A DNA stretch of 64,000 nt, taken from contig CAYFQD010000006.1 in the NCBI GenBank assembly GCA_964345275.1, positions 812-64,811 on the forward strand, given 5' to 3'. This document shows positions 7,047-37,439 of this stretch, in pieces. Made by a program: the position numbers and the translations under genes. The notes beneath the pieces are model-generated. The model made no database searches. It saw only the letters and a list, made by a program, of their open reading frames with translations, and had not been told where the DNA came from. Within the stretch, counting starts at the first letter, position 1; each line of letters opens with the position of its first letter. This stretch comes from an uncultured Oscillospiraceae bacterium. Lineage in GTDB: Bacteria; Bacillota; Clostridia; Peptostreptococcales; Anaerovoracaceae.

Positions 7047-8087
7047 TTACTCCAGGATAACTCCCTCTTCGGATTCAACGACTTCACCCAGGATATATGG
7101 TTCCTCGCCGCTTCCTCTCAATATTTCCAGCGCTTCGTCCGTATTGCCGGCGCCGACTATACATATCATGCCGACGCCCATGTTAAATGTATTATACATA
7201 TCGTGCTCCGATATGTTTCCACGCTCTGCAATCAGATCAAAAATCGGAAGGGTTCTTACATCGCTCTTCTCTATTTTCGCACCCAGCCCGTCAGGCAAAG
7301 CCCTTGGAATATTTTCATAAAATCCGCCTCCGGTAATATGGGCAACGGATTTAACTTCTACTTTTTTTATCAGGTTCATTACCGCTCTGACATATATCTT
7401 TGTAGGCGTAAGCAGAGTCTCCAGAAGGCTCTTTCCTCCCAGGGCCTCCTCATGACCTGTAATATCTGAACTTTCCACATCGAAAACTTTTCTTACCAGG
7501 GAGAAGCCGTTTGAGTGTACGCCGCTTGAAGGCAGCGCGATAATCTTATCCCCCGCGCTGACCTTCCCTTTGTCAAGTACCTTCTTTTTGTCAACGATTC
7601 CCACAGCAAAGCCTGCCAGATCATATTCATTTTCAGGGTAAAATCCCGGCATCTCCGCCGTTTCGCCACCGATAAGTGCTGCTCCCGACTGAACACATCC
7701 CTCTGCAACTCCCCTGACAATCTGTGCAATTTTTTCAGGGAATATTTTCCCGCATGCGATGTAGTCCAGAAAAAACAGAGGCTGTGCCCCGCAGCATACA
7801 ATGTCATTTACACACATGGCTACAGCGTCTATACCTATTGTGTCATGCCTGTCTGCAAGAAATGCCAGCTTCAGTTTGGTTCCAACACCGTCTGTTCCGC
7901 TTACGAGAACCGGCTCCTCCATTCCCGAAATATCAGGCGCAAAGAGACCTCCGAATCCACCCACATCTGACAGCACTCCCGGCGTCATTGTTCTCGTCAC
8001 ATGATCCTTCATAAGCTTAACTGCCTCATATCCGGCAGTAATATCCACTCCGGATGCCGCATAGGCATCTGATTTAGAATTATTCAT
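7047..8087 (-). CDS. purM: Phosphoribosylformylglycinamidine cyclo-ligase (AIR synthetase)
   Basis: 346 aa with typical PurM sequence ([16 protein letters not shown]...[12 protein letters not shown]...DYIACGK...[10 protein letters not shown]). Confidence 0.95.
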
Positions 8088-8105
8088 TTCCTCTCCTTAC
8101 TTACC

Positions 8106-9527
8106 TTACTTGCCGGTCCAGCAATATGTACACACTTTACATGGATCAAGTCCTATTGCCTCTAAAATATTATCCACTCTCTGATAGCCCATGGAATCGA
8201 ATCCCAGCTTCTCACATATGGCATTTCTCAGAGCTTTGCCTCTCTCCGTGGTTCCGTCACTGTATTCGCTTATATGCTTATCGCCTTCCGGTCCTTCCAG
8301 TTCCGCAATAATGCTTCTTGCCAGAAGTTCATCATCCCTGTTCTGTCTTGAGAATGTCAGATACTTGCAGCCGAACATTACAGGCGGACATGCTGACCGC
8401 ATGTGTACTTCTCTGGCGCCGTTCTCATAGAGAAAATCTATTGTCTCTTTCAGCTGTGTCCCCCGTACGATGCTGTCATCCACAAAGAGAAGCTTCTTGT
8501 CCCTGATGAGCTCTTTTACCGGCACCATCTTCATCTTGGCCACACGGCTCCTCTGCTCCTGGTTCATAGGCATAAAACTCCTGGGCCAGGTGGGCGTATA
8601 CTTGATAAAGGGTCTGGCGTAGTTTATGTCCGTTTCGTTAGCGTAGCCGATAGCGTGGGGAATACCTGAGTCAGGAACACCCGCAACAAAATCCATATCG
8701 AAACTCTCACCGCATTCTCTGTCCAGCTGCGCCAGCAGGTGTCCGTTTATATTTCTCATCCTTTCGACATTTTTACCTTCGTAAGCGGAATTCGGGTAAC
8801 CGTAGTAAGTCCAGAGGAATGCACATATCTGCATCTCTTCTCCCGGTTCAACCAGCGTTCTGACCGAATCGGCGGTAATTTCCACAATCTCTCCCGGTCC
8901 CAGTTCCTTGATGGTTTCATAACCCAGCTTCTCATATGCGAAGGATTCGAAAGCCAGACTGTGACCCTCCTCGTCTTTGCCTATGAGCATAGGTGTTCTG
9001 CCGTATTTATCTCTGGCTGCAATGATGTCGCCATTCTCCTTCATTATGAGGATTGACGCGGAGCCTTCAATAGAATTCTGTGCGAAAACTATCCCGGCCT
9101 CGAAGCTGCTCTTCTGGTCTATAAGAGAAGCCACTATTTCCGTAGAATTTATTCTGCCTCCGCTCATGGCATCGAAATGTCCGCCGCTGAATGAAAGGTA
9201 TGACTGCATCAGCTGTTCCTTATTAAGAATGTTTCCCACTGTAATAATCGCGTATGTTCCAAGATTGGATCTTATGAGCAAAGGCTGCGGATCGCTGTCG
9301 CTGATACAGCCTATCCCCGCCTTTCCCGCAAAATCTTCTCTGACTCCCTCAAACTTGGTTCTGAAAGGTGAGTTTTCTATATTATGTATTTTTCTCTGGA
9401 ATCCGTAATCGTCGTTCATGATTGCCATGCCGCCGCGTCTCGTCCCAAGATGTGAATGGTAATCCGTACCGTAAAAAATATCCATGACGATATCTCTTCT
9501 TGATACCGCACCGAAGTAACCGCCCAT
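8106..9527 (-). CDS. purF: Amidophosphoribosyltransferase-like protein, divergent form lacking the N-terminal Cys nucleophile
   Basis: 473 aa. PRTase core motif LLFVDDSIVRGTQ and a Cys-rich C-terminus (CKVCTYCWTGK). The N-terminus reads MGGYFGAVS instead of (M)CG(I/V)xG. It occupies the purF position in the operon. Confidence 0.8.
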   Translation of the reverse strand: MGGYFGAVSRRDIVMDIFYGTDYHSHLGTRRGGMAIMNDDYGFQRKIHNIENSPFRTKFEGVREDFAGKAGIGCISDSDPQPLLIRSNLGTYAIITVGNILNKEQLMQSYLSFSGGHFDAMSGGRINSTEIVASLIDQKSSFEAGIVFAQNSIEGSASILIMKENGDIIAARDKYGRTPMLIGKDEEGHSLAFESFAYEKLGYETIKELGPGEIVEITADSVRTLVEPGEEMQICAFLWTYYGYPNSAYEGKNVERMRNINGHLLAQLDRECGESFDMDFVAGVPDSGIPHAIGYANETDINYARPFIKYTPTWPRSFMPMNQEQRSRVAKMKMVPVKELIRDKKLLFVDDSIVRGTQLKETIDFLYENGAREVHMRSACPPVMFGCKYLTFSRQNRDDELLARSIIAELEGPEGDKHISEYSDGTTERGKALRNAICEKLGFDSMGYQRVDNILEAIGLDPCKVCTYCWTGK

Positions 9528-9571
9528 TTACTTGTCCTTTCCTTATCTGCCGGAAACAGAGATTATGCCTG

Positions 9572-10270
9572 CTATACCGTCATCGCTGCGAAAAACAGCT
9601 CCGACAGAGTCATCGGATCTACATACTCTCCATCCTTATATACTCTCATATTACCTGAAGCAATTTCGTCGATGAGCATTACTCTGTCATCCGCATCGTA
9701 TCCGAATTCGAGCTTGATATCATAAAGAACAAGGTTCTTTTCTCTCAGGTCATCGGCAACAATCCGGGTTATTTTCTGTGTCATTGCCTTCATATCCTCA
9801 TACTGCTCATCGGTCATTACACCCAGAACTATGAGCCCATCCTTAGTTACCAGCGGATCACCTTTCTCATCATTCTTAAAAGTCATCTCTACATATTCAG
9901 GCAGATCGGCACCTTCCTCAATGTATTCCCCATATCTCCTGAAGAAGGAACCCACCGCCTTGTGCCTGCAGATTACTTCCAGTCCCTTCCCGAACACTCT
10001 GGCAGGCTTAACCGTCATGGTCGTGCTTGCCGGATCTGCGCTGACATAGTGAGTAAGAATACCGGCAGCGTTTATCTTTTCGAAGAAATATGCTGACATT
10101 CTGAGATTAGCATAACCGACCCCTTCTATTGTCAGGCCAACAGCATTTCCACCCGGATCAAAAACCCCGTCCCTGCCGGTGCAGTCATCCTTAAAAACCA
10201 GCAGATAGTTGCCATCTTCCTGCTTGTAAACATCCTTAGTTTTTCCCTTATAAACCAGTTCGCTCTTCAT
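9572..10270 (-). CDS. purC: SAICAR synthetase
   Basis: [15 protein letters not shown]...; the internal ATG at 10270 is preceded by GGAGGA (aacggaggaaaagATG). Confidence 0.95.
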
Positions 10271-10843: not shown

Positions 10844-10866
10844 GAACCAACCAATAAAAAACAAAA

Positions 10867-10933
10867 ACCAATAGTCACTTTTTTTCGGCGCGTGGTAGAG
10901 ACGTTCAGGCCGTCATACTGAACATATATTAGT
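10867..10933 (-). promoter_or_regulatory. Purine (guanine-type) riboswitch-like aptamer with an atypical P3
   Basis: Minus-strand RNA: ACUAAUA-UAU-GUUCAG-UAUGACGGC-CUGAAC-GUCUCUACC-ACGCGCCGAAAAAAAGU-GAC-UAUUGGU. P1 and P2 pair. The J2-3 (GUcUCUACC) and J3-1 (GAC-UAU, with C at the specificity position) signatures match the purine riboswitch. L2 GG and L3 CC are present. The P3 helix is largely unpaired. Confidence 0.5.
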
Positions 10934-10983
10934 AAAATATTCAATTGTGACAAGAAAACTGCTGATTCCATGTCCTTAAAGCA

Positions 10984-20756: not shown

Positions 20757-20832
20757 GCCACTGTAGCTCATCCGGCAGAGCAGCACATTCGTAACGTGCA
20801 GGTGGCCGGTTCGATCCCGGCCAGTGGCTCCA
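20757..20832 (+). tRNA. tRNA-Thr (anticodon CGT), CCA encoded
   Basis: Manual cloverleaf: acceptor GCCACTG/CAGTGGC, D stem GCTC/GAGC, anticodon arm GCACA-TTCGTAA-CGTGC, T arm GCCGG-TTCGATC-CCGGC, then T+CCA. 76 nt. Confidence 0.85.
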
Positions 20833-20833
20833 T

Positions 20834-20909
20834 GGGGCATTGGCGCAGCTGGGAGCGCGCTTGGCTGGCAGCCAGGAGGTCAGGGGTTCGAGCCCCCTAT
20901 GCTCCACCA
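20834..20909 (+). tRNA. tRNA-Ala (anticodon GGC), CCA encoded
   Basis: Acceptor GGGGCAT/ATGCTCC with the G3:U70 identity pair, anticodon loop CTGGCAG, T arm AGGGG-TTCGAGC-CCCCT. 76 nt, 1 nt after tRNA-Thr. Confidence 0.88.
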
Positions 20910-32715: not shown

Positions 32716-34017
32716 CTACTCGACAATCCTTTTTAATAACTCTCTTTTAATCGGCATATCGCTTCCTGTTTTGAAAGCCTTTGCTGCCTCTTCAGCAGCC
32801 GCCTGCATTTTTATGTCATCATTGCCGTACAGGGTACAGAGCAAATCACCTTCTTTAATCCTGTCTCCTGTCTTAACAGCGAGTACAATTCCTGCCGACA
32901 GATCCACCCGGCCATCCTTTTTCTCCCGCCCTGCACCGGTATGCTGCGACGCCAGGCCGATAATCATAGCATCCACACCCTGAATATAGCCGGAAGACTT
33001 TGCTCTGATTTCAATCTCCTTGCCGGCCCGTGGAAGCAGATTGTAATCCTCCGTAATGTCAGGGTTGCCGCCTTGAGCTGATACAAACTCTCTGAATTTA
33101 TCAAGGGCTCTGCCATCGGAGAGGGCTTCCTTCGCCCTTTGTGTCGCCTTTTCAACATTCTCGCCGGTACTCAGATGGATCATCAGCCCTGCCAGCCTGA
33201 TGGACAGCTCTCTTATATCTCCGGGGCCCTGCCCTTTAAGTACATCTATTGCCTCCTTAACCTCAAGGGCGTTTCCTACTGCCAGCCCCAAAGGTTCCTC
33301 CATATCTGAAATCACTGCCAGAGTTTTCTTTCCACTGCCTCTTCCGATCTTCACCATCATTTCCGCCAGAGCTAAGGATTCCTTCTCATCCTTCATAAAT
33401 GCCCCGCTTCCTGTCTTTACATCCAGAACTATTGCATCGGAACCGGCAGCAAGCTTTTTGCTCATTATGCTTGCAGTAATCAGACTGAGATTCTCTACTG
33501 TTCCCGTCACATCTCTAAGAGCATACATCTTCTTGTCAGCCGGAGCTATGTGTCCGGTCTGCCCGATAACCGCGATTCCTTTCTCGTTTACCTGTCTGAT
33601 GAATTCCTCCTGCGCCATTGATGTTCTGAATCCCGGTATGGCTTCCATCTTGTCCACGGTCCCTCCGGTAAAGCCCAGCCCTCTGCCGCTCATCTTGGCA
33701 ACAGGCACCCCGCAGGCTGCAGCGACAGGCCCCACGATGAGGGTTGTCTTATCACCAACCCCTCCGGTGCTGTGCTTGTCGACTTTTATGCCTTTGATAC
33801 CGGACAGATCCATCACATCTCCCGAGTCTCTCATGCACCCGGTCAGATTAACGGTCTCCTCTTCATTCATCCCGCGAAAATAGACAGCCATAAGAAAAGC
33901 TGCCATCTGATAATCGGGGATACTTCCATCAGTATAACCCCTCACCATATATTCTATCTCTGCAGGGGCGAGAACTTTGCCGTCTCTCTTCTTTGTTATG
34001 ATATCAACCGTATTCAC
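32716..34017 (-). CDS. pdp: Pyrimidine-nucleoside phosphorylase
   Basis: (V)NTVDIITKKRDGK...DKHSTGGVGDKTTL...AKMSGRGLGFTGGTVDK... The start is probably GTG 34017, preceded by AAAGGAG. The upstream ATG 34044 has no RBS. Confidence 0.92.
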   Translation of the reverse strand: MNTVDIITKKRDGKVLAPAEIEYMVRGYTDGSIPDYQMAAFLMAVYFRGMNEEETVNLTGCMRDSGDVMDLSGIKGIKVDKHSTGGVGDKTTLIVGPVAAACGVPVAKMSGRGLGFTGGTVDKMEAIPGFRTSMAQEEFIRQVNEKGIAVIGQTGHIAPADKKMYALRDVTGTVENLSLITASIMSKKLAAGSDAIVLDVKTGSGAFMKDEKESLALAEMMVKIGRGSGKKTLAVISDMEEPLGLAVGNALEVKEAIDVLKGQGPGDIRELSIRLAGLMIHLSTGENVEKATQRAKEALSDGRALDKFREFVSAQGGNPDITEDYNLLPRAGKEIEIRAKSSGYIQGVDAMIIGLASQHTGAGREKKDGRVDLSAGIVLAVKTGDRIKEGDLLCTLYGNDDIKMQAAAEEAAKAFKTGSDMPIKRELLKRIVE

Positions 34018-34204
34018 TTCGTCTGCTCCTTTTCTCCAAAGCATAGCTTTGTAGCAACACTATTATACTACAAATTGGGGAAATGGGTAGTTTAAAAGGA
34101 CCGCCATTAAGATGATCCTCTGATAGATACAATTATGGATTACGAGAACATTAAAAGCCTTATTCCCGCCACGAGGAAGGATAAAAAGCACAGACCCAAA
34201 ACAA

Positions 34205-34483
34205 TCATAGTGCAGAAAGTATTTCTCCCAGTGAAGAAAGTGTTCCCCACACGAGGGAGGATAAAAAACACGAAATGATAAATAGTAATATCTTGCCACC
34301 TGTGCTAATGGTTCTGGCCATAAAGAGGCCAAAGATACCAATAGGCCAGCAAAAAATCAAGGCCAATATGAGAAACCATTTCTTCTCACACATTTCTTTA
34401 AACCAGTTAAAAGCCCTTCTCCACCATTTATTCTCGTATTCCAGGCGACGTTTATTCTCTTCTCTCTGCTGTACTTTAGTCAA
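34205..34483 (-). CDS. Small membrane protein, basic N-terminus + two predicted TM helices (partner of the DUF4145-like protein)
   Basis: The TTG start overlaps the TGA stop of the upstream ORF (caTTGAct). Sequence KRRLEYENKWWRRAFNWFK... then WFLILALIFCWPIGIFGLFMA and ILLFIISCFLSSLVWGTLSSL. An internal ATG (MCEKKW) is an alternative start. Confidence 0.55.
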   Translation of the reverse strand: MTKVQQREENKRRLEYENKWWRRAFNWFKEMCEKKWFLILALIFCWPIGIFGLFMARTISTGGKILLFIISCFLSSLVWGTLSSLGEILSAL

Positions 34484-35694
34484 TGCAGCATTATAATAAA
34501 CACTAAAAGGCCCATAGTTGAAACATTCGATATCATTCCGGGACGATTATTTTTAAATATATCGCAAATTTCGTTGTATGCATCAGCCAATGCTCCCTCA
34601 TACTCGGTAATTGTGTTATTATCATCTGCAGCTTTTGCACACAAAACCATAAATTTCAGTTTTTCAAGTGTATCGTAATTAGCACTTTGGTGAATGGGTG
34701 CAATGATATTGCCCTGATATTTATCGAAAATATAATTGGTGAATTCCGCTGTCATAGAATACAGAGCAGTAGCTCTGTACCACGAAAACCCCTCGTATTG
34801 ATTTTCATAAATCGGAGTAGGTATTTTTTGTCTGCTGTTACTATCGTAATATTCATTGATGCCCGATACATAATAGTAAACATAATTACTTATTCCTCTA
34901 TAAAATGCATAATTATATGCATCCCATATTGCAGTTGCGATGTATCTCAAAGGAACATATTCTCCTCTTTCCCACTTTCTTGCTGCCGTTATAACGGCTT
35001 CGCTGACCCAGTAATAATATCTGGCATCATAGCTATAAGCCGGCGAATACTTCTTTCCCTTGAAAAAGTATGCAGGCATATTGACTAAACCATTGTCGTT
35101 CCATACGAGATTTTTTGGATCTTTAGAAAGAAAACCAATTGCAATATCCAGCATTGCCTCAACATCACCATTCTCAGCCTTACGCTTCAATTCGCAGTAT
35201 TCGGGAATGACCAGCAATTGTTCATTTTTTGTGCAATCCGACCATCTGCCGTAATATCTGTGGTTCTGACTGTAGTAATCAGGGTGTTCCATTGGAATAT
35301 TATTTTCATACCTTGCCTGACTCATCCTTTCACTGCGGTCAGAATTTGTAATAATTTCTATAAGTTTTCCTAACTCATCTATGACTTCATTGGCTAATGC
35401 AATTGGAATTTCTACCGCGTCCAGATCCACATGGCTCCCTTTGTTTGCATTAGTTCTGATTCGATGCATCATATCTTTTTCTCGTATGCTGATCACATCT
35501 GACTCATACAGACTGTCAATCATTTCCATCAAATCCATCTCTCGTGTATCCGAAACCACTCCGGAATTTACGCACATCTGTTTTATCAGCATTTCAAGTG
35601 CACGCCTGGAAGCGGAGAGAGAACCATAGCTGTCCCCATCACGAGCATATTTTTTTGCGTTTTCGTAAGGCTTCAATATCATTTCGTATTTCAT
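34480..35694 (-). CDS. DUF4145 (HEPN-related)-like N-terminal domain fused to a Tyr/Trp-rich Sel1-like repeat region and a hydrophobic C-terminal tail
   Basis: 404-aa intact ORF with its own AT-rich promoter region and a GAAAGG RBS. Residues 1-115 (SASRRALEMLIKQMC...LMEMIDSLYESDVI...MHRIRTNANKGSHVD) fit my recollection of the DUF4145 pattern. KRKAENGDVEAMLDIAIGFL is Sel1-like. The tail reads STMGLLVFIIMLH. No search was run. Confidence 0.7.
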   Translation of the reverse strand: MKYEMILKPYENAKKYARDGDSYGSLSASRRALEMLIKQMCVNSGVVSDTREMDLMEMIDSLYESDVISIREKDMMHRIRTNANKGSHVDLDAVEIPIALANEVIDELGKLIEIITNSDRSERMSQARYENNIPMEHPDYYSQNHRYYGRWSDCTKNEQLLVIPEYCELKRKAENGDVEAMLDIAIGFLSKDPKNLVWNDNGLVNMPAYFFKGKKYSPAYSYDARYYYWVSEAVITAARKWERGEYVPLRYIATAIWDAYNYAFYRGISNYVYYYVSGINEYYDSNSRQKIPTPIYENQYEGFSWYRATALYSMTAEFTNYIFDKYQGNIIAPIHQSANYDTLEKLKFMVLCAKAADDNNTITEYEGALADAYNEICDIFKNNRPGMISNVSTMGLLVFIIMLH

Positions 35695-35789
35695 TTTTTC
35701 AACCTTTCATTCCGTAAAAAGAAATAATAATTTCATGCTCACAAGATAATATTTTAATTATATACCTTACAAACACCTTTATCAAAGGG

Positions 35790-35814
35790 CCAAAAGGCAG
35801 GATTATATCCTGCC
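35790..35814 (-). terminator. Hairpin/terminator at the end of the CAP-domain relic
   Basis: Minus strand GGCAGG-auauaau-CCUGCC followed by UUUUGG; the stop codon lies in the loop. Confidence 0.5.
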
Positions 35815-36177
35815 GAAACACTGCACCCAGTACCTTACGCCATCCTCCTCATAGCAGGCGATACCTACTGCATTAAATCTGGAACACAACATGTTTCTTC
35901 GATGTCCCTGCAGATTATACTTTTCATCTGTTTCCTTCCAGACCTCTGTCGCATCCTTCGCTGTTCTATACCCATAAACCAGGTTTTCGCCCCTGAATTT
36001 TATTCCCTTAGGATATGCTGTAAAGCAATTTTTCCCATTTGGACGAGTGTGAGAATACTTCACTGCAATCTCTTTAGCGCGAATTTTAGCAGTATTCTCC
36101 AGTCTGGCATTCCTCTTTAGCGGCTTCAGTTTATTCTTTGCATTGGTATTGAAATACTTTTTATGAAAATCACGGTT
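35803..36177 (-). pseudogene. 5'-truncated CAP/SCP/PR1-like (YkwD-type) domain gene
   Basis: The open frame reads RDFHKKYFNTNAKNKLKPLKRNARLENTAKIRAKEIAVKYSHTRPNGKN...GHRRNMLCSRFNAVGIACYEEDGVRYWVQCFGRI. It has no signal peptide and no ATG, and is bounded upstream by an in-frame TAA at 36178-36180. Confidence 0.6.
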
Positions 36178-36368
36178 TTAAAAAGAACGCGGAAACCGAA
36201 TCCTGTATTGAGCTTTCCGGCGAAGTAATCGGTATGGGAAATTTCGCTCGTTTTCTCCGTGGATTCGGCTCATCTGCAATCGTAATGAAACCGGCATCCC
36301 TGCGTCAGCTAATGTTGTCTTCAGCGGACAAGGTAATTGCACGATACAAAGAGGTAAATGAAAAATGA
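36153..36368 (+). pseudogene. C-terminal fragment of a WYL-domain regulator (5' part deleted)
   Basis: Only about 70 codons are open: ...ELSGEVIGMGNFARFLRGFGSSAIVMKPASLRQLMLSSADKVIARYKEVNEK. This resembles the C-terminal extension of WYL regulators. Its TGA overlaps the ATG of the next gene (ATGA). Confidence 0.5.
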
Positions 36369-37337
36369 TTGATTTGATTAACAAATATGAGAGACTGTCT
36401 GCCGAACTATGCTTCCTTAACCACAGCTTATCTGCAGAGGAACTGCCGGATGATTGCCCTGCAGGCATAACTCCGGCAACTCTCAGTGAAGAAATACATG
36501 TTCCCCTGGAAATAGTTCGGGAAGATCTGATGTTCATTCTGGCTTCACCGATTTTTCGTACCGCCTGTATATCCGAACTGAAACCGATGGAAATTGTAGA
36601 TATTTTGGGAAAACAGTCCCATGGATGGGAGCATATTCCTTTGGCCTTTTCACTTGACTGTTTGGACTTAGACCCTCCATTAACCGGTATACCTGTTTAT
36701 ATGACACCAATTGAACAGTCGGTATTTCGTTCGGTTCTGAATCATCGGGAACCTGCCGGTGAAATCGTCTCTGTAAAAGATCAATGGAGAAGTTCAGCTG
36801 ATTCAGACTGCACCGCGACTGATCATCACTTCAATTGACACACAACTGAGCTACATGGTTTCATTTTCTAAAATAACATCAAATAAAAATCTCACGGAGC
36901 CGATGCTTATGCTATATCGTTTAGATCGTATTCAGGATGGCATCGTGCATAAGCTGCCTAAATTGAAATCCCTGCCTCTGACATCTTCTGAGTCAGCGCT
37001 TCTGGAGCGGTTGTCCTACGCCTGGGGAACCGATTTTCCGACAGGAAGCGAACCCTTCAATGTAAAAATAAAAATCTTTGCACATACAGAAAACCTGATA
37101 TCAAAAATCAAAAGTGATACATCAAGACGCACCAGCGGCAGATTATGACGAGATGAATCTGACCCGGAAATTTATTATTACACAGACAAGATACTTGGTC
37201 TGAATTCCTTTCGGAGATGGGTAATGAGTTACGGAAGCAGTGTGATTGTATTGTCACCGGAATCGCTTGCAGAATCAATCGTCAGTTCTGCAGAGGAAAA
37301 GAAGAATTTTTATAAAAGAAACGATTTTTCATATTGA
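36365..37337 (+). pseudogene. WYL-domain regulator disrupted by one frameshift and one in-frame TGA
   Basis: There are three pieces. Frame 2 covers 36365-36838. The reading continues in frame 0 from about 36777 (KINGEVQLIQTAPRLIITSIDTQLSYMVSF...MLMLYRLDRIQDG, the WYL-type RLDRI motif); the shift is near the A-run at 36775-36778. An in-frame TGA lies at 37146-37148, followed by RDESDPEIYYYTDKILGLNSFRRWVMSYGSSVIVLSPESLAESI. Confidence 0.6.
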
Positions 37338-37380: not shown

Positions 37381-37414
37381 AACTAAGAAAGGACCGTCTA
37401 TAGACGGCCCTTTC
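37381..37414 (-). terminator. Intrinsic terminator after preA
   Basis: Minus strand GAAAGGGCCGTC-tata-GACGGTCCTTTC followed by TTAGTTTT. Confidence 0.75.
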
Positions 37415-37439
37415 TTCAATCAGCTTTATAATATGATTC

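What the first reader, a model, noticed from the sequence alone, without database searches (positions are those of the whole stretch)
34205..35694. Intact two-gene cassette (DUF4145/HEPN-like + Sel1-like protein with a small 2-TM partner) in an AT-rich island: candidate undescribed defence/abortive-infection module
These are the only intact genes in the island. The two ORFs are translationally coupled: the TTG start overlaps the TGA stop (caTTGAct).

- **Large protein, N-terminus:** about 115 residues fit my memory of the DUF4145 pattern (RRALEMLI..., ...IRTNANKGSH). That family is related to HEPN nuclease domains and recurs in restriction and abortive-infection contexts.
- **Large protein, remainder:** a Tyr/Trp-rich region with at least one Sel1-like repeat (ENGDVEAMLDIAIGFL) and a short hydrophobic C-terminal tail.
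- **Small partner:** a basic cytosolic head and two TM helices, the typical shape of a membrane effector or anchor.
- **Context:** the cassette has its own promoter-like AT-rich upstream region and sits next to relics of WYL regulators, which are often attached to defence islands.

I cannot match this domain combination to any named defence system.
Basis: partly seen in the sequence, partly recalled or inferred. Interest (0 to 1): 0.7.

Follow-up and report, generated by a model that had tools for sequence, protein, structure and literature searches.

The report
Split HEPN-nuclease gene, not a pair
The supposed two-gene defence cassette is most likely one gene of a rare gut-Clostridia family (a HEPN-type RNase domain, an undescribed domain and a membrane anchor) that a frame break has cut in two inside a small patch of decaying genes.

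Summary
The sequence features are real. A 404-aa ORF (34480-35694, minus) has a bona fide DUF4145/HEPN N-terminus. A 92-aa TTG-started ORF with two TM helices (34205-34483) overlaps its stop. WYL/WCX regulator relics lie alongside, and no known defence model matches.

The "intact two-gene cassette" reading does not hold:
- The small ORF is an orphan with no Shine-Dalgarno sequence.
- No relative has such a partner. All relatives examined in genomic context (8 independent contexts) are single ORFs.
- About a third of the family carries 1-4 TM helices fused at its own C-terminus.
- The small ORF's frame aligns colinearly with the juxtamembrane region of the nearest homologue (p≈0.0015), starting upstream of the TTG.
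- A second sample of the same locus carries a nonsense mutation in the large gene.

The family has 77 clusters among 1.84 billion. Its core is DUF4145, with the R-x7-H dyad validated in RAZR, plus a ~230-aa Tyr/Trp-rich domain with no Pfam or PDB match. Tails are variable (TM, Sel1, zinc ribbon, coiled coil).

A membrane-tethered, signal-activated RNase of the conflict/defence type is plausible but unproven. Genomic contexts are mixed: Ser/Thr kinases near the origin, WYL/WCX pairs, a phage-like module. They are not defence islands.

The parts
35757..35785 (-). Promoter-like site (TTGATA, 17-nt spacer, TATAAT; 11 of 12 matches), about 60 nt upstream of the large ORF
   Evidence: The total count of such sites in the region is not above the shuffle expectation, so this is positional evidence only.
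34480..35694 (-). Large ORF, 404 aa, ATG start, preceded by the SD-like GAAAGG 8 nt upstream
   Evidence: On record at NCBI as a 404-aa product.
35335..35694 (-). N-terminal DUF4145 / HEPN-fold domain (residues ~1-120) with R30, E34, H77, R80, N84 and H88. The R80 codon is 35455-35457 and the H88 codon is 35431-35433.
   Evidence: Pfam 32.4 bits. Foldseek HEPN hits. Residues conserved in 66-71 of 73 family members.
34549..35322 (-). Undescribed Tyr/Trp-rich alpha/beta domain (residues ~125-382; the conserved core is 125-352)
   Evidence: The profile finds only 77 clusters in 1.84 billion. The AF2 domain model has pLDDT 81 and pTM 0.81. No PDB or BFVD fold match. No Pfam family.
34483..34546 (-). 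Frame-junction interval. The small ORF's frame is already open here (21 codons upstream of the TTG) while the large ORF's frame runs to its TGA. A putative 1-nt deletion would lie in this stretch.
   Evidence: The corresponding frame-0 tail (residues 383-404) has pLDDT below 50 and no similarity to homologues (p=0.47).
34205..34483 (-). Small ORF, 92 aa, TTG start, no SD. It has a basic head and two TM-like helices, and probably represents the detached C-terminal membrane anchor of the same gene.
   Evidence: orphan; fused TM tails in relatives; colinear similarity to the P0002 C-terminal region, z=4.4, p=0.0015.
34140..34229 (-). Cryptic third hydrophobic segment (MIVLGLCFLSFLVAGIRLLMF) in another frame just past the small ORF's stop. 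It contains one copy of a 29-nt repeat (34163-34191); the other copy (34243-34271) lies in TM2.
   Evidence: Repeat score 38 against a shuffle maximum of 30. The 80-nt spacing is 27 codons minus 1.
34781..34781 (-). Polymorphic site: G in the window (TGG, W305), A in an independent sample (TAG, stop)
   Evidence: L001, Logan ERR3345669, 99.94% identical over 3532 nt.
35803..36165 (-). 5'-truncated CAP/YkwD-family gene relic
   Evidence: Pfam CAP profile positions 39-117 of 117, and NCBIfam spore_YkwD far below its cutoff. There is no start codon or signal peptide upstream in frame (read directly).
36153..36365 (+). C-terminal remnant of a WYL-type regulator (WCX domain); the 5' part is missing
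   Evidence: Pfam WCX 24.4 bits, cutoff 23.9.
36365..37334 (+). Second WYL/WCX-type regulator gene, about 323 codons, broken by a frameshift near 36800 and an in-frame stop at 37146-37148
   Evidence: Pfam WCX 26.1 bits on the pieced translation. The tandem arrangement with a 4-nt overlap matches the intact WYL + WCX pair upstream of the family gene in L011.
37385..37416 (-). Strong terminator-like hairpin (14-bp stem) ending the upstream dihydropyrimidine dehydrogenase-like operon. It marks the edge of the AT-rich patch.

Best explanation
The locus holds one degraded gene, not a two-gene system.

The ancestral gene encoded a protein of about 500 aa belonging to a rare family restricted so far to gut and rumen Clostridia. 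Its parts were:
- an N-terminal DUF4145-type HEPN domain, the predicted RNase, carrying the R-x3-N-x3-H signature;
- a previously undescribed ~230-260-aa aromatic-rich domain, the presumed sensor or regulatory module;
- a C-terminal membrane anchor of two, perhaps three, TM helices.

In this lineage a frame change, most simply a 1-nt deletion between 34483 and 34546, separated the anchor from the body. That produced the 404-aa ORF and the 92-aa TTG ORF. The gene lies in a 3.4-kb AT-rich patch, together with a truncated CAP gene and two broken WYL/WCX regulator genes, between two pyrimidine-metabolism operons. This patch is the remains of an acquired module in decay.

For intact family members I infer the following working model, which is not shown. 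The protein sits at the inner face of the membrane, or is tethered by Sel1 or coiled-coil tails. The novel domain holds the HEPN domain inactive until a signal arrives, such as a phage or envelope cue, or phosphorylation by the neighbouring kinase. HEPN dimerisation then cleaves RNA and stops growth.

Shown: domain identity, residue conservation, family architectures, orphan status of the small ORF, decay of the neighbours. Inferred: the frameshift itself, RNase activity, and any defence role.
For: Family shape and fused anchors:
- All relatives examined in context are single ORFs: 459-632 aa for the nine closest, against 404+92=496 here.
- 24 of about 70 members have 1-4 TM helices fused C-terminally. 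P0031 (489 aa, TMs at 426-444 and 452-470), P0044 (497 aa) and the 653-aa L011 protein have two.

The small ORF is not an independent conserved gene:
- It has no homologue among 5.8 billion proteins other than itself.
- It has no similar neighbour in 8 independent contexts.
- It uses TTG with no SD, whereas the large ORF has GAAAGG-N8-ATG.

Frame evidence:
- Its frame is open 21 codons upstream of the TTG.
- The 113-aa frame-2 peptide aligns colinearly with P0002 residues ~424-470, just before P0002's own TM helix. Smith-Waterman score 46, z=4.36, empirical p=0.0015. The soluble part alone gives p=0.0095. The alignment begins 18 residues upstream of the TTG.
- The large ORF's own tail shows no similarity (p=0.47) and is the lowest-confidence part of the model (pLDDT below 50).

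Decay:
- An independent assembly has W305* as one of only two SNPs in 3.5 kb.
- A 29-nt repeat leaves a cryptic third TM segment out of frame.
- The neighbouring CAP and WYL/WCX genes are fragments.

HEPN identity:
- Pfam DUF4145 scores above its gathering cutoff, and 59 of 73 relatives match it.
- Foldseek's top hits are HEPN proteins and toxins, probability 0.99-1.00 and TMt up to 0.71.
- R80, N84 and H88 are conserved in 67, 71 and 69 of 73 members.
- RAZR's DUF4145 domain is a validated RNase needing R146 and H154, the same R-x7-H spacing (PMC13017515).

Prior description:
- Membrane-associated HEPN proteins, and a Firmicutes DUF4145 architecture with Sel1, zinc ribbon, TM and SH3, were described in PMC3710099.
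Against: - No sequence closer than 43% identity exists, so the ancestral single ORF cannot be shown directly.
- tblastn with nine homologues finds no significant second-frame HSP.
- blastp and phmmer of the frame-2 peptide against the family give only E of 0.05 or worse.
- A motif profile from 14 relatives scores neither frame.
- The portion upstream of the TTG is not significant on its own (p=0.10), and 21 open codons are expected by chance about 20% of the time.
- TTGA-type overlaps are a known form of translational coupling.
- The junction is identical in two assemblies, so it is not a sequencing error, and a working gene fission cannot be excluded.
- The large ORF keeps a good promoter-like site and SD, all HEPN signature residues, and a weakly hydrophobic tail of its own (19-mer KD 1.77). 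It could therefore still be functional.
- RNase activity and any trigger are inference only.
Confidence: 0.55

Rival explanations
1. This is a working two-gene operon. An ancient gene fission left a cytosolic HEPN/novel-domain protein and a separately translated 2-TM anchor or effector. The two are translationally coupled through the TTGA overlap. Together they act as a membrane-associated abortive-infection module.
For: - The overlap of stop and start is exact.
- The 113-codon open frame is far longer than chance allows (P about 2e-4), so it has been under recent coding constraint.
- The junction is identical in two independent assemblies.
- The large ORF has promoter-like and SD signals and all conserved HEPN residues.
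- Small or multi-pass TM proteins lie adjacent to family members in other lineages: 128 aa in L004, 143 aa in L010, 313 aa in L009. Membrane partners in trans may therefore be a family theme.
Against: - The small ORF has no SD and a TTG start in a lineage whose other genes show normal signals.
- It has no homologue anywhere.
- The adjacent TM proteins of other lineages are unrelated to it and to each other, and those of L004 and L010 lie upstream, not downstream.
- A third of the family has the TMs fused.
- The similarity to P0002 runs through and upstream of the TTG.
- There is a nonsense allele in the other sample and decayed neighbours.
Confidence: 0.27
2. The family is not a defence system. 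It is a chromosomal signalling or envelope-associated component. Either it is a HEPN-type RNase, or a non-catalytic HEPN scaffold, that acts with Ser/Thr kinase/PP2C modules and secreted fn3 or surface proteins to regulate RNA stability in response to cell-surface signals. The window simply holds a dead copy.
For: - In two divergent lineages (L004 rumen, L010 Anaerovoracaceae MAG) the gene sits near dnaA/dnaN/recF/gyrB. A Ser/Thr kinase (plus PP2C in L004) and a shared ~455-aa protein lie nearby, with the gene order rearranged but the linkage kept.
- The downstream secreted fn3 protein is shared by L002 and L004.
- No neighbour in any context matches a PADLOC model convincingly.
- The family is absent from sequenced phages and plasmids.
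- The human-gut orthologue is stably intact in about 25 samples.
- PMC3710099 proposed stimulus-dependent RNA degradation for membrane HEPN proteins.
Against: - The family is extremely patchy: 2 of 185,579 species representatives and 77 clusters in 1.84 billion. That fits accessory or conflict genes better than core signalling.
- One member is fused to a TIR domain.
- WYL/WCX regulator pairs accompany it in two contexts.
- The human-gut copy borders a phage-like module, and three of its contigs are in IMG/VR.
- DUF4145 recurs in the defence models PD-T7-4, PDC-M16A and PDC-S06.
Confidence: 0.15

Closest known systems
RAZR (PD-T7-4), ring-activated zinc-finger RNase (PMC13017515)
   Same: - Both use a DUF4145-type HEPN domain.
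- The catalytic Arg and His have the same spacing: R146/H154 in RAZR, R80/H88 here.
- Both are single-polypeptide effectors with an attached non-catalytic module.
- Two relatives of the window protein give weak hits to the PD-T7-4 model through this domain.
   Different: - RAZR has an N-terminal Cys4 zinc finger and a C-terminal DUF4145. Here DUF4145 is N-terminal and is followed by an unrelated ~230-aa domain and TM or repeat tails.
- The window protein itself does not match the PD-T7-4 model.
- No trigger, oligomer or RNase activity is known for this family.
DUF4145 (PF13643) HEPN family as surveyed by Anantharaman et al. 2013 (PMC3710099), including the listed Firmicutes architecture 'Sel1, Zinc Ribbon, TM and SH3' and the 'membrane-associated HEPN' groups
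   Same: - The domain identity is the same.
- The family's accessory modules found here (Sel1 in 12 members, zinc ribbon in 6, TM in about 24, SH3_3 in 1) reproduce the 2013 list. The architecture class was therefore already noticed.
- The proposed logic is the same: a cytoplasmic HEPN domain on a membrane protein, giving stimulus-dependent RNA cleavage.
   Different: - In the passages I read, the 2013 survey does not describe the conserved ~230-aa domain that defines this family.
- The membrane DUF4145 group it details has an N-terminal single TM with a WP signature, not C-terminal anchors.
HEPN toxins of HEPN/MNT toxin-antitoxin pairs (e.g. PDB 5yep, 6m6w, 7ae6)
   Same: They are the best structural matches to residues ~1-130: Foldseek probability 0.87-1.00, TM normalised to target 0.40-0.58.
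   Different: - No MNT nucleotidyltransferase gene is adjacent.
- Those toxins are ~130-aa stand-alone proteins with Rx4-6H.
- Sequence identity is only 10-14%.
PADLOC candidate systems PDC-M16A and PDC-S06
   Same: 28 family members (PDC-M16A) and 5 (PDC-S06) match through the DUF4145 domain.
   Different: - Matches cover only about 100 of the 930 profile positions of PDC-M16A, or about 70 of the 784 positions of PDC-S06.
- The window protein matches neither.
- This is a shared domain, not the same protein.

Membership tests
Pfam DUF4145 (PF13643) | Score at or above the curated gathering threshold (23.1 bits) | tested here: met
   32.4 bits, E=9.5e-8, residues 22-91. 59 of 73 relatives also match.
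Pfam DUF4145 (PF13643) | Conserved Arg...Asn...His signature on the last core helix | tested here: met
   R80, N84 and H88 are present in the window protein and conserved in 67, 71 and 69 of 73 members.
HEPN superfamily | Four-helix HEPN fold | tested here: met
   Foldseek's top 29 PDB hits are HEPN or HEPN-like domains (2hsb, 5yep, 6m6w, 1o3u and others), probability up to 1.00 and TMt 0.5-0.71. E-values are only 0.05-1 because the query was the whole 404-aa model. Sub-threshold matches to the Pfam HEPN model appear in relatives, and one is above threshold (P0049, 25.8 bits).
HEPN superfamily | Canonical Rx4-6H catalytic motif | tested here: not met
   The spacing is R-x7-H (R80...H88), read directly. 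This is the DUF4145 variant and is identical to RAZR's functional R146/H154, so activity is not excluded.
HEPN superfamily | RNase activity | not testable with these tools
   Needs biochemistry.
RAZR / PD-T7-4 | N-terminal Cys4 zinc-finger domain followed by C-terminal DUF4145; match to the PADLOC PD-T7-4 model | tested here: not met
   No PADLOC hit for the window protein at E<=1. There is no zinc-ribbon Pfam hit, and DUF4145 is N-terminal.
Sel1-repeat proteins (PF08238) | At least one repeat detectable by the Sel1 model | tested here: not met
   No Sel1 hit at E<=1 in the window protein. The helix-turn-helix at 164-187 resembles half a repeat only by eye. Genuine Sel1 arrays occur in 12 other members.
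HEPN/MNT type II toxin-antitoxin | Adjacent minimal nucleotidyltransferase (MNT) antitoxin gene | tested here: not met
   The neighbours are a CAP relic, WCX relics and pyrimidine-metabolism genes.
   The small ORF has no homologue. No equivalent downstream gene is found in 8 independent contexts.
   - No convincing PADLOC hits among 10 neighbours from five contexts.
- Three of the contexts lie next to replication genes (dnaA/dnaN/recF in L004 and L010, a phage-type dnaN in L008).
- Against that: a WYL/WCX pair in L011, a phage-like module in the human-gut lineage and one TIR fusion.
- The sample is too small for enrichment statistics.
New family defined here (DUF4145 + ~230-aa aromatic-rich domain) | Significant match to the middle-domain profile, with the nearly invariant motifs N-x-P-M...P-D-Y, R-[RK]-Y-x-G-x-W, R-Y-Y-Y-W and Y-I-A-T-A | tested here: met
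   The window protein seeded the profile. Its truncated twin P0001 scores 255 bits. There are 75 hits at E<=1e-10 and a sharp cut-off. The motifs are present, except H145 where 66 of 73 members have R.

The most novel reading that the evidence does not exclude
The DUF4145 + novel-domain family is an undescribed single-protein abortive-infection or conflict system of gut Clostridia, in some lineages regulated by a WYL/WCX pair. The aromatic-rich domain, which has a new fold, recognises a phage or mobile-element cue. It then releases a membrane-tethered HEPN RNase. The window preserves a recently inactivated, or fission-rescued, copy together with its decayed WYL/WCX regulators.
Probability: 0.25. 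Interest if true: 0.6.

Novelty: new variant of a known kind. Interest (0 to 1): 0.35.

Why it matters
If the family reading is right, it adds a new sensor domain with no known fold to the growing set of DUF4145/HEPN RNase effectors, which became experimentally grounded only with RAZR. It would also place such an effector at the membrane of strictly anaerobic gut bacteria, where almost no defence systems have been tested.

The practical lesson for annotation is more immediate. Overlapping 'translationally coupled' small TM ORFs downstream of orphan genes can be detached C-termini. Here the clue came from the architectures of distant relatives, not from any sequence match.

The window's own copy is probably a poor experimental starting point. 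The intact human-gut orthologue (L008/L018 lineage) or P0031/P0044-type members would be better.

Tried and rejected
Tests of the one-gene-or-two question that gave nothing decisive:
- tblastn of nine homologues against the locus, looking for a second-frame HSP past the junction: none significant.
- blastp and phmmer of the frame-2 peptide and of the frame-0 tail against all 80 family proteins: best E about 0.05-0.4, not usable.
- A 39-column profile of the conserved '...W-x-x-L-x-P-Y-T-x-G-x-F-C...' motif from 14 relatives, scored on both frames: neither scores. The motif cannot place the frameshift.
- Programmed -1 frameshifting: read by eye, there is no X XXY YYZ slippery heptamer in the 63-nt interval where the shift must occur, and the A-rich run upstream is followed by stops in the -1 frame. 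Rejected as unlikely.

Context and organism look-ups that failed:
- Exact-protein look-ups of the two flanking genes, to find island-free strains and the organism: not on record. Relatives are Clostridia MAGs.
- Homology search with the 157-aa ORF, to prove WYL ancestry: it is an orphan. This was resolved instead by piecing frames together and finding WCX domains.
- tblastn of the L011 WYL/WCX proteins against the window: only E=0.04.

Searches for known relatives that were negative:
- tblastn against phage and plasmid collections: no match.
- PDB sequence profile search: nothing.
- Foldseek against BFVD: nothing beyond the HEPN part.
- PADLOC hits of relatives to PtuA: these fall in their Sel1-repeat regions with no accepted stretch and were disregarded.
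- I could not identify which single member carries the TIR fusion. P0022 and P0066 were tried: P0022 has Sel1, P0066 has nothing.
Full report
**1. What is in the sequence**

On the minus strand there is a 404-aa ATG ORF (34480-35694) and a 92-aa TTG ORF (34205-34483). The TTG overlaps the TGA of the first ORF (caTTGAct).

The region is an AT-rich patch, GC 0.37-0.42 against about 0.45-0.50 around it. It runs for about 3.4 kb. On one side is the terminator-like hairpin of a dihydropyrimidine dehydrogenase-like operon (37385-37416). On the other is a pyrimidine-nucleoside phosphorylase gene (32716-34044).

The large ORF has a near-consensus promoter-like site (TTGATA-17-TATAAT, 35785-35757) and the SD-like GAAAGG 8 nt before the ATG. 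The small ORF has no SD; the sequence before its TTG is TTTATTATAATGCTGCA.

The small ORF encodes a basic head and two hydrophobic 19-mers (residues 37-55 and 65-83, KD 2.49 and 2.08). The large ORF's tail contains only a 13-residue hydrophobic run.

**2. The large protein**

- **N-terminal domain.** Pfam assigns residues 22-91 to DUF4145 at 32.4 bits against a gathering cutoff of 23.1. PADLOC and NCBIfam give nothing useful.
- **Model.** An AlphaFold2 model from a 10-sequence alignment is usable (pLDDT 79, pTM 0.73). The last 22 residues fall below pLDDT 50.
- **Fold of the N-terminus.** Foldseek against the PDB returns HEPN domains and HEPN toxins for the first ~130 residues, with probability up to 1.00 and TM normalised to target up to 0.71. 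E-values are 0.05-1 for the full-length query. Nothing matches the remainder, and BFVD adds nothing.
- **Middle domain.** Modelled alone, residues 125-352 give pLDDT 81 and pTM 0.81. No PDB structure resembles them: best probability 0.12, all TM-scores at or below 0.30. A profile search of PDB sequences is also empty.
- **Sel1.**

**3. The family**

The word-indexed search found only 10 relatives among 5.8 billion clusters. A profile of the middle domain alone, run exhaustively against 1.84 billion representatives, found 77 proteins. Of these, 75 score at E<=1e-10, which is a sharp boundary. Only 2 of 185,579 species-representative genomes carry it: an Anaerovoracaceae MAG and an uncultured Clostridia MAG. 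No sequenced phage or plasmid carries it.

The conserved core is DUF4145 immediately followed by the novel domain; 59 of 73 members match DUF4145. The attached modules vary:
- Sel1 arrays at either end (12 members)
- zinc ribbons (6 members)
- TPR repeats
- one SH3_3 domain
- one TM2 domain
- one TIR domain
- coiled-coil tails
- 1-4 C-terminal TM helices in about 24 of 70 members

The 2013 HEPN survey already lists a Firmicutes DUF4145 architecture 'fused to Sel1, Zinc Ribbon, TM and SH3' (PMC3710099). The architecture class is therefore not new. The middle domain is undescribed as far as I could find.

R30, E34, H77, R80, N84 and H88 are conserved in 66-71 of 73 members, and the window protein keeps all of them. 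The R-x7-H spacing falls outside the canonical Rx4-6H. It equals the spacing of R146/H154 in RAZR (PD-T7-4), whose DUF4145 domain is an experimentally validated RNase required for abortive infection (PMC13017515).

**4. One gene or two?**

Evidence that the small ORF is the detached C-terminus of the same gene:
- Every relative examined in genomic context is a single ORF. The nine closest are 459-632 aa, against 404+92=496 here.
- P0031 (489 aa) and P0044 (497 aa) have two C-terminal TM helices in exactly the expected place. The 653-aa L011 protein also ends in two TM helices, and the nearest homologue P0002 (43% identity) has a basic stretch followed by a TM helix.
- The small ORF has no homologue in the 5.8-billion-cluster collection other than itself.
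- Nothing like it is found next to any relative.
- Its reading frame is open for 21 codons upstream of the TTG.
- The 113-aa frame-2 peptide aligns colinearly with P0002's juxtamembrane region. The Smith-Waterman score is 46, z=4.36 and empirical p=0.0015 against 2000 shuffles. The soluble part alone gives p=0.0095. The alignment starts 18 residues upstream of the TTG.
- The large ORF's own tail shows no similarity (p=0.47).

Evidence that leaves the question open:
- tblastn shows no second-frame HSP.
- Family-wide blastp and phmmer are non-significant.
- A motif profile discriminates neither frame.
- The upstream 22 residues alone give p=0.10, and 21 open codons occur by chance about 20% of the time.
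- The junction is identical in a second, independent assembly, so it is not a sequencing error. A functional fission with TTGA coupling therefore cannot be excluded.

I put about 0.55 on 'one gene, frame-broken and probably decaying' and about 0.27 on 'working split pair'.

**5. Signs of decay**

- **Nonsense allele.** The independent assembly L001 (Logan ERR3345669) is 99.94% identical over 3532 nt. One of its two differences is TGG to TAG at window 34781 (W305*) in the large gene.
- **Out-of-frame repeat.** A 29-nt direct repeat (25 of 29 identical, score 38 against a shuffle maximum of 30) lies 80 nt apart, one base short of 27 codons. One copy encodes CFLSSLVWG in TM2 of the small ORF. The other encodes CFLSFLVAG just beyond the stop in a different frame. 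That leaves a cryptic third hydrophobic segment and suggests a second frame disruption.
- **Truncated CAP gene.** Next door, a CAP/YkwD gene lacks its 5' half.
- **Broken regulators.** On the opposite strand are two tandem WYL-type regulator genes. One is reduced to its WCX C-terminus (36153-36365, 24.4 bits). The other (36365-37334) is broken by a frameshift and an in-frame stop, and its WCX domain scores 26.1 bits against a cutoff of 23.9.

'The only intact genes in the island' overstates the state of the cassette.

**6. Genomic contexts of relatives**

There are 8 independent contexts:
- **G2 (L002/L003).** The family gene is followed by a secreted fn3 protein.
- **G3 (rumen, L004-L007).** The order is PP2C, a 1369-aa Ser/Thr kinase with Sel1 repeats, a 128-aa TM protein, the family gene, a 52-aa ORF, an fn3 protein homologous to that of G2, and recF. 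gyrB follows a few genes further on.
- **G6 (Anaerovoracaceae MAG, L010/L015).** The order is dnaN, dnaA, rnpA, yidC, jag, a transglutaminase-like protein, a 143-aa TM protein, the family gene and a 910-aa Ser/Thr kinase. G6 shares a ~455-aa unknown protein and recF with G3.
- **G4 (human gut, L008 and about 24 further contigs).** The gene is intact in all of them. Its length varies from 661 to 816 aa, probably through Sel1 copy number. It always follows a phage-type sliding clamp and other PHROG-matching genes (nucleotidyltransferase, antitoxin, phrog_23767). Cell-surface genes lie downstream. Three of the contigs are IMG/VR entries.
- **G5 (L009).** A 313-aa multi-TM protein lies downstream.
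- **G7 (Clostridia MAG, L011).** An intact WYL protein (411 aa) and WCX protein (328 aa) lie directly upstream on the same strand, and the family protein has two fused TM helices.
- **G8 (L017).** The contig is too short to be informative.

Ten neighbours from five contexts gave no convincing PADLOC hit. PADLOC hits of family members (PDC-M16A in 28, PDC-S06 in 5, PD-T7-4 in 2) cover only the DUF4145 domain.

The picture is a patchy accessory gene with mixed company, not a classical defence-island resident. Two recurrent associations deserve testing: Ser/Thr kinases in two lineages, and WYL/WCX regulator pairs in two lineages, one of which is the window.

**7. Mechanism**

*Shown:*
- a DUF4145/HEPN fold with a conserved R/N/H signature;
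- a conserved novel domain;
- frequent membrane or repeat tethers.

*Inferred:*
- Intact members are cytoplasm-facing, membrane- or scaffold-tethered RNases. Their HEPN domains must dimerise to form an active site, as is general for HEPN domains (PMC13017515).
- The novel domain is the sensor or autoinhibitory element.
- The output is RNA cleavage and growth arrest.

This follows the 'stimulus-dependent RNA degradation' idea for membrane HEPN proteins (PMC3710099) and the RAZR precedent. A non-defence signalling role alongside the kinases is a live alternative, at about 0.15.

**8. Verdict**

The headline claim, an intact and undescribed two-gene defence module, is not supported. The locus is best read as a single, probably decaying member of a rare DUF4145 family whose middle domain is new.

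Novelty: a new variant of a known kind, namely a HEPN/DUF4145 effector with a novel accessory domain. Interest is moderate to low for this locus (0.35). It is higher for the family if an intact member proves to be a defence RNase.

Noticed in passing
window 34163-34191 and 34243-34271; 34140-34229 (-): A 29-nt direct repeat, 80 nt apart, encodes the same peptide motif (CFLS[SF]LV[WA]G) in two different frames. It leaves a cryptic third TM-like segment just past the small ORF's stop, which may reflect a second frameshift or a partial duplication.
   Followed up: partly
window 34781 (L001 position 2703): An independent metagenome assembly of the same locus (99.94% identical over 3.5 kb) has a TGG to TAG nonsense change in the large ORF. 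It is one of only two SNPs.
   Followed up: yes
window 35803-36165 (-): A 5'-truncated CAP/YkwD-family gene fragment (CAP profile positions 39-117 only), with no start codon or signal peptide.
   Followed up: partly
window 36153-37334 (+): Two tandem WYL/WCX-type regulator pseudogenes with a 4-nt overlap. They mirror the intact WYL + WCX pair directly upstream of the family gene in locus L011 (7659-9877).
   Followed up: yes
L008 and L012-L038 (family gene at about 7500-9900): The human-gut orthologue is intact in about 25 independent contigs but ranges from 661 to 816 aa, apparently through Sel1-repeat copy-number variation. It always follows a phage-type sliding clamp gene, and three of the contigs are IMG/VR viral entries.
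   Followed up: partly
L004 2484-12513; L010 8370-15478: In two divergent lineages the family gene lies near dnaA/dnaN/recF next to a Ser/Thr kinase (plus PP2C in L004), a small TM protein and a shared ~455-aa protein with no Pfam match. The gene order differs but the linkage is kept.
   Followed up: partly
L002 2441-3979; L004 9661-11244: A secreted fn3-domain protein of about 520 aa (29% identical between the two loci) lies downstream of the family gene in two independent contexts.
   Followed up: no
window 10852-10951 (-): Purine riboswitch aptamer (Rfam RF00167, 50.6 bits).
   Followed up: no
window 20757-20909 (+): A tRNA-Thr(cgt) and tRNA-Ala(ggc) pair, next to one of the few plus-strand genes. 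It coincides with a local reversal of AT skew.
   Followed up: no
window 35260-35262 (residue 145 of the large ORF): The window protein has His where 66 of 73 family members have Arg, in the conserved R-[RK]-Y-x-G-x-W motif of the novel domain.
   Followed up: no
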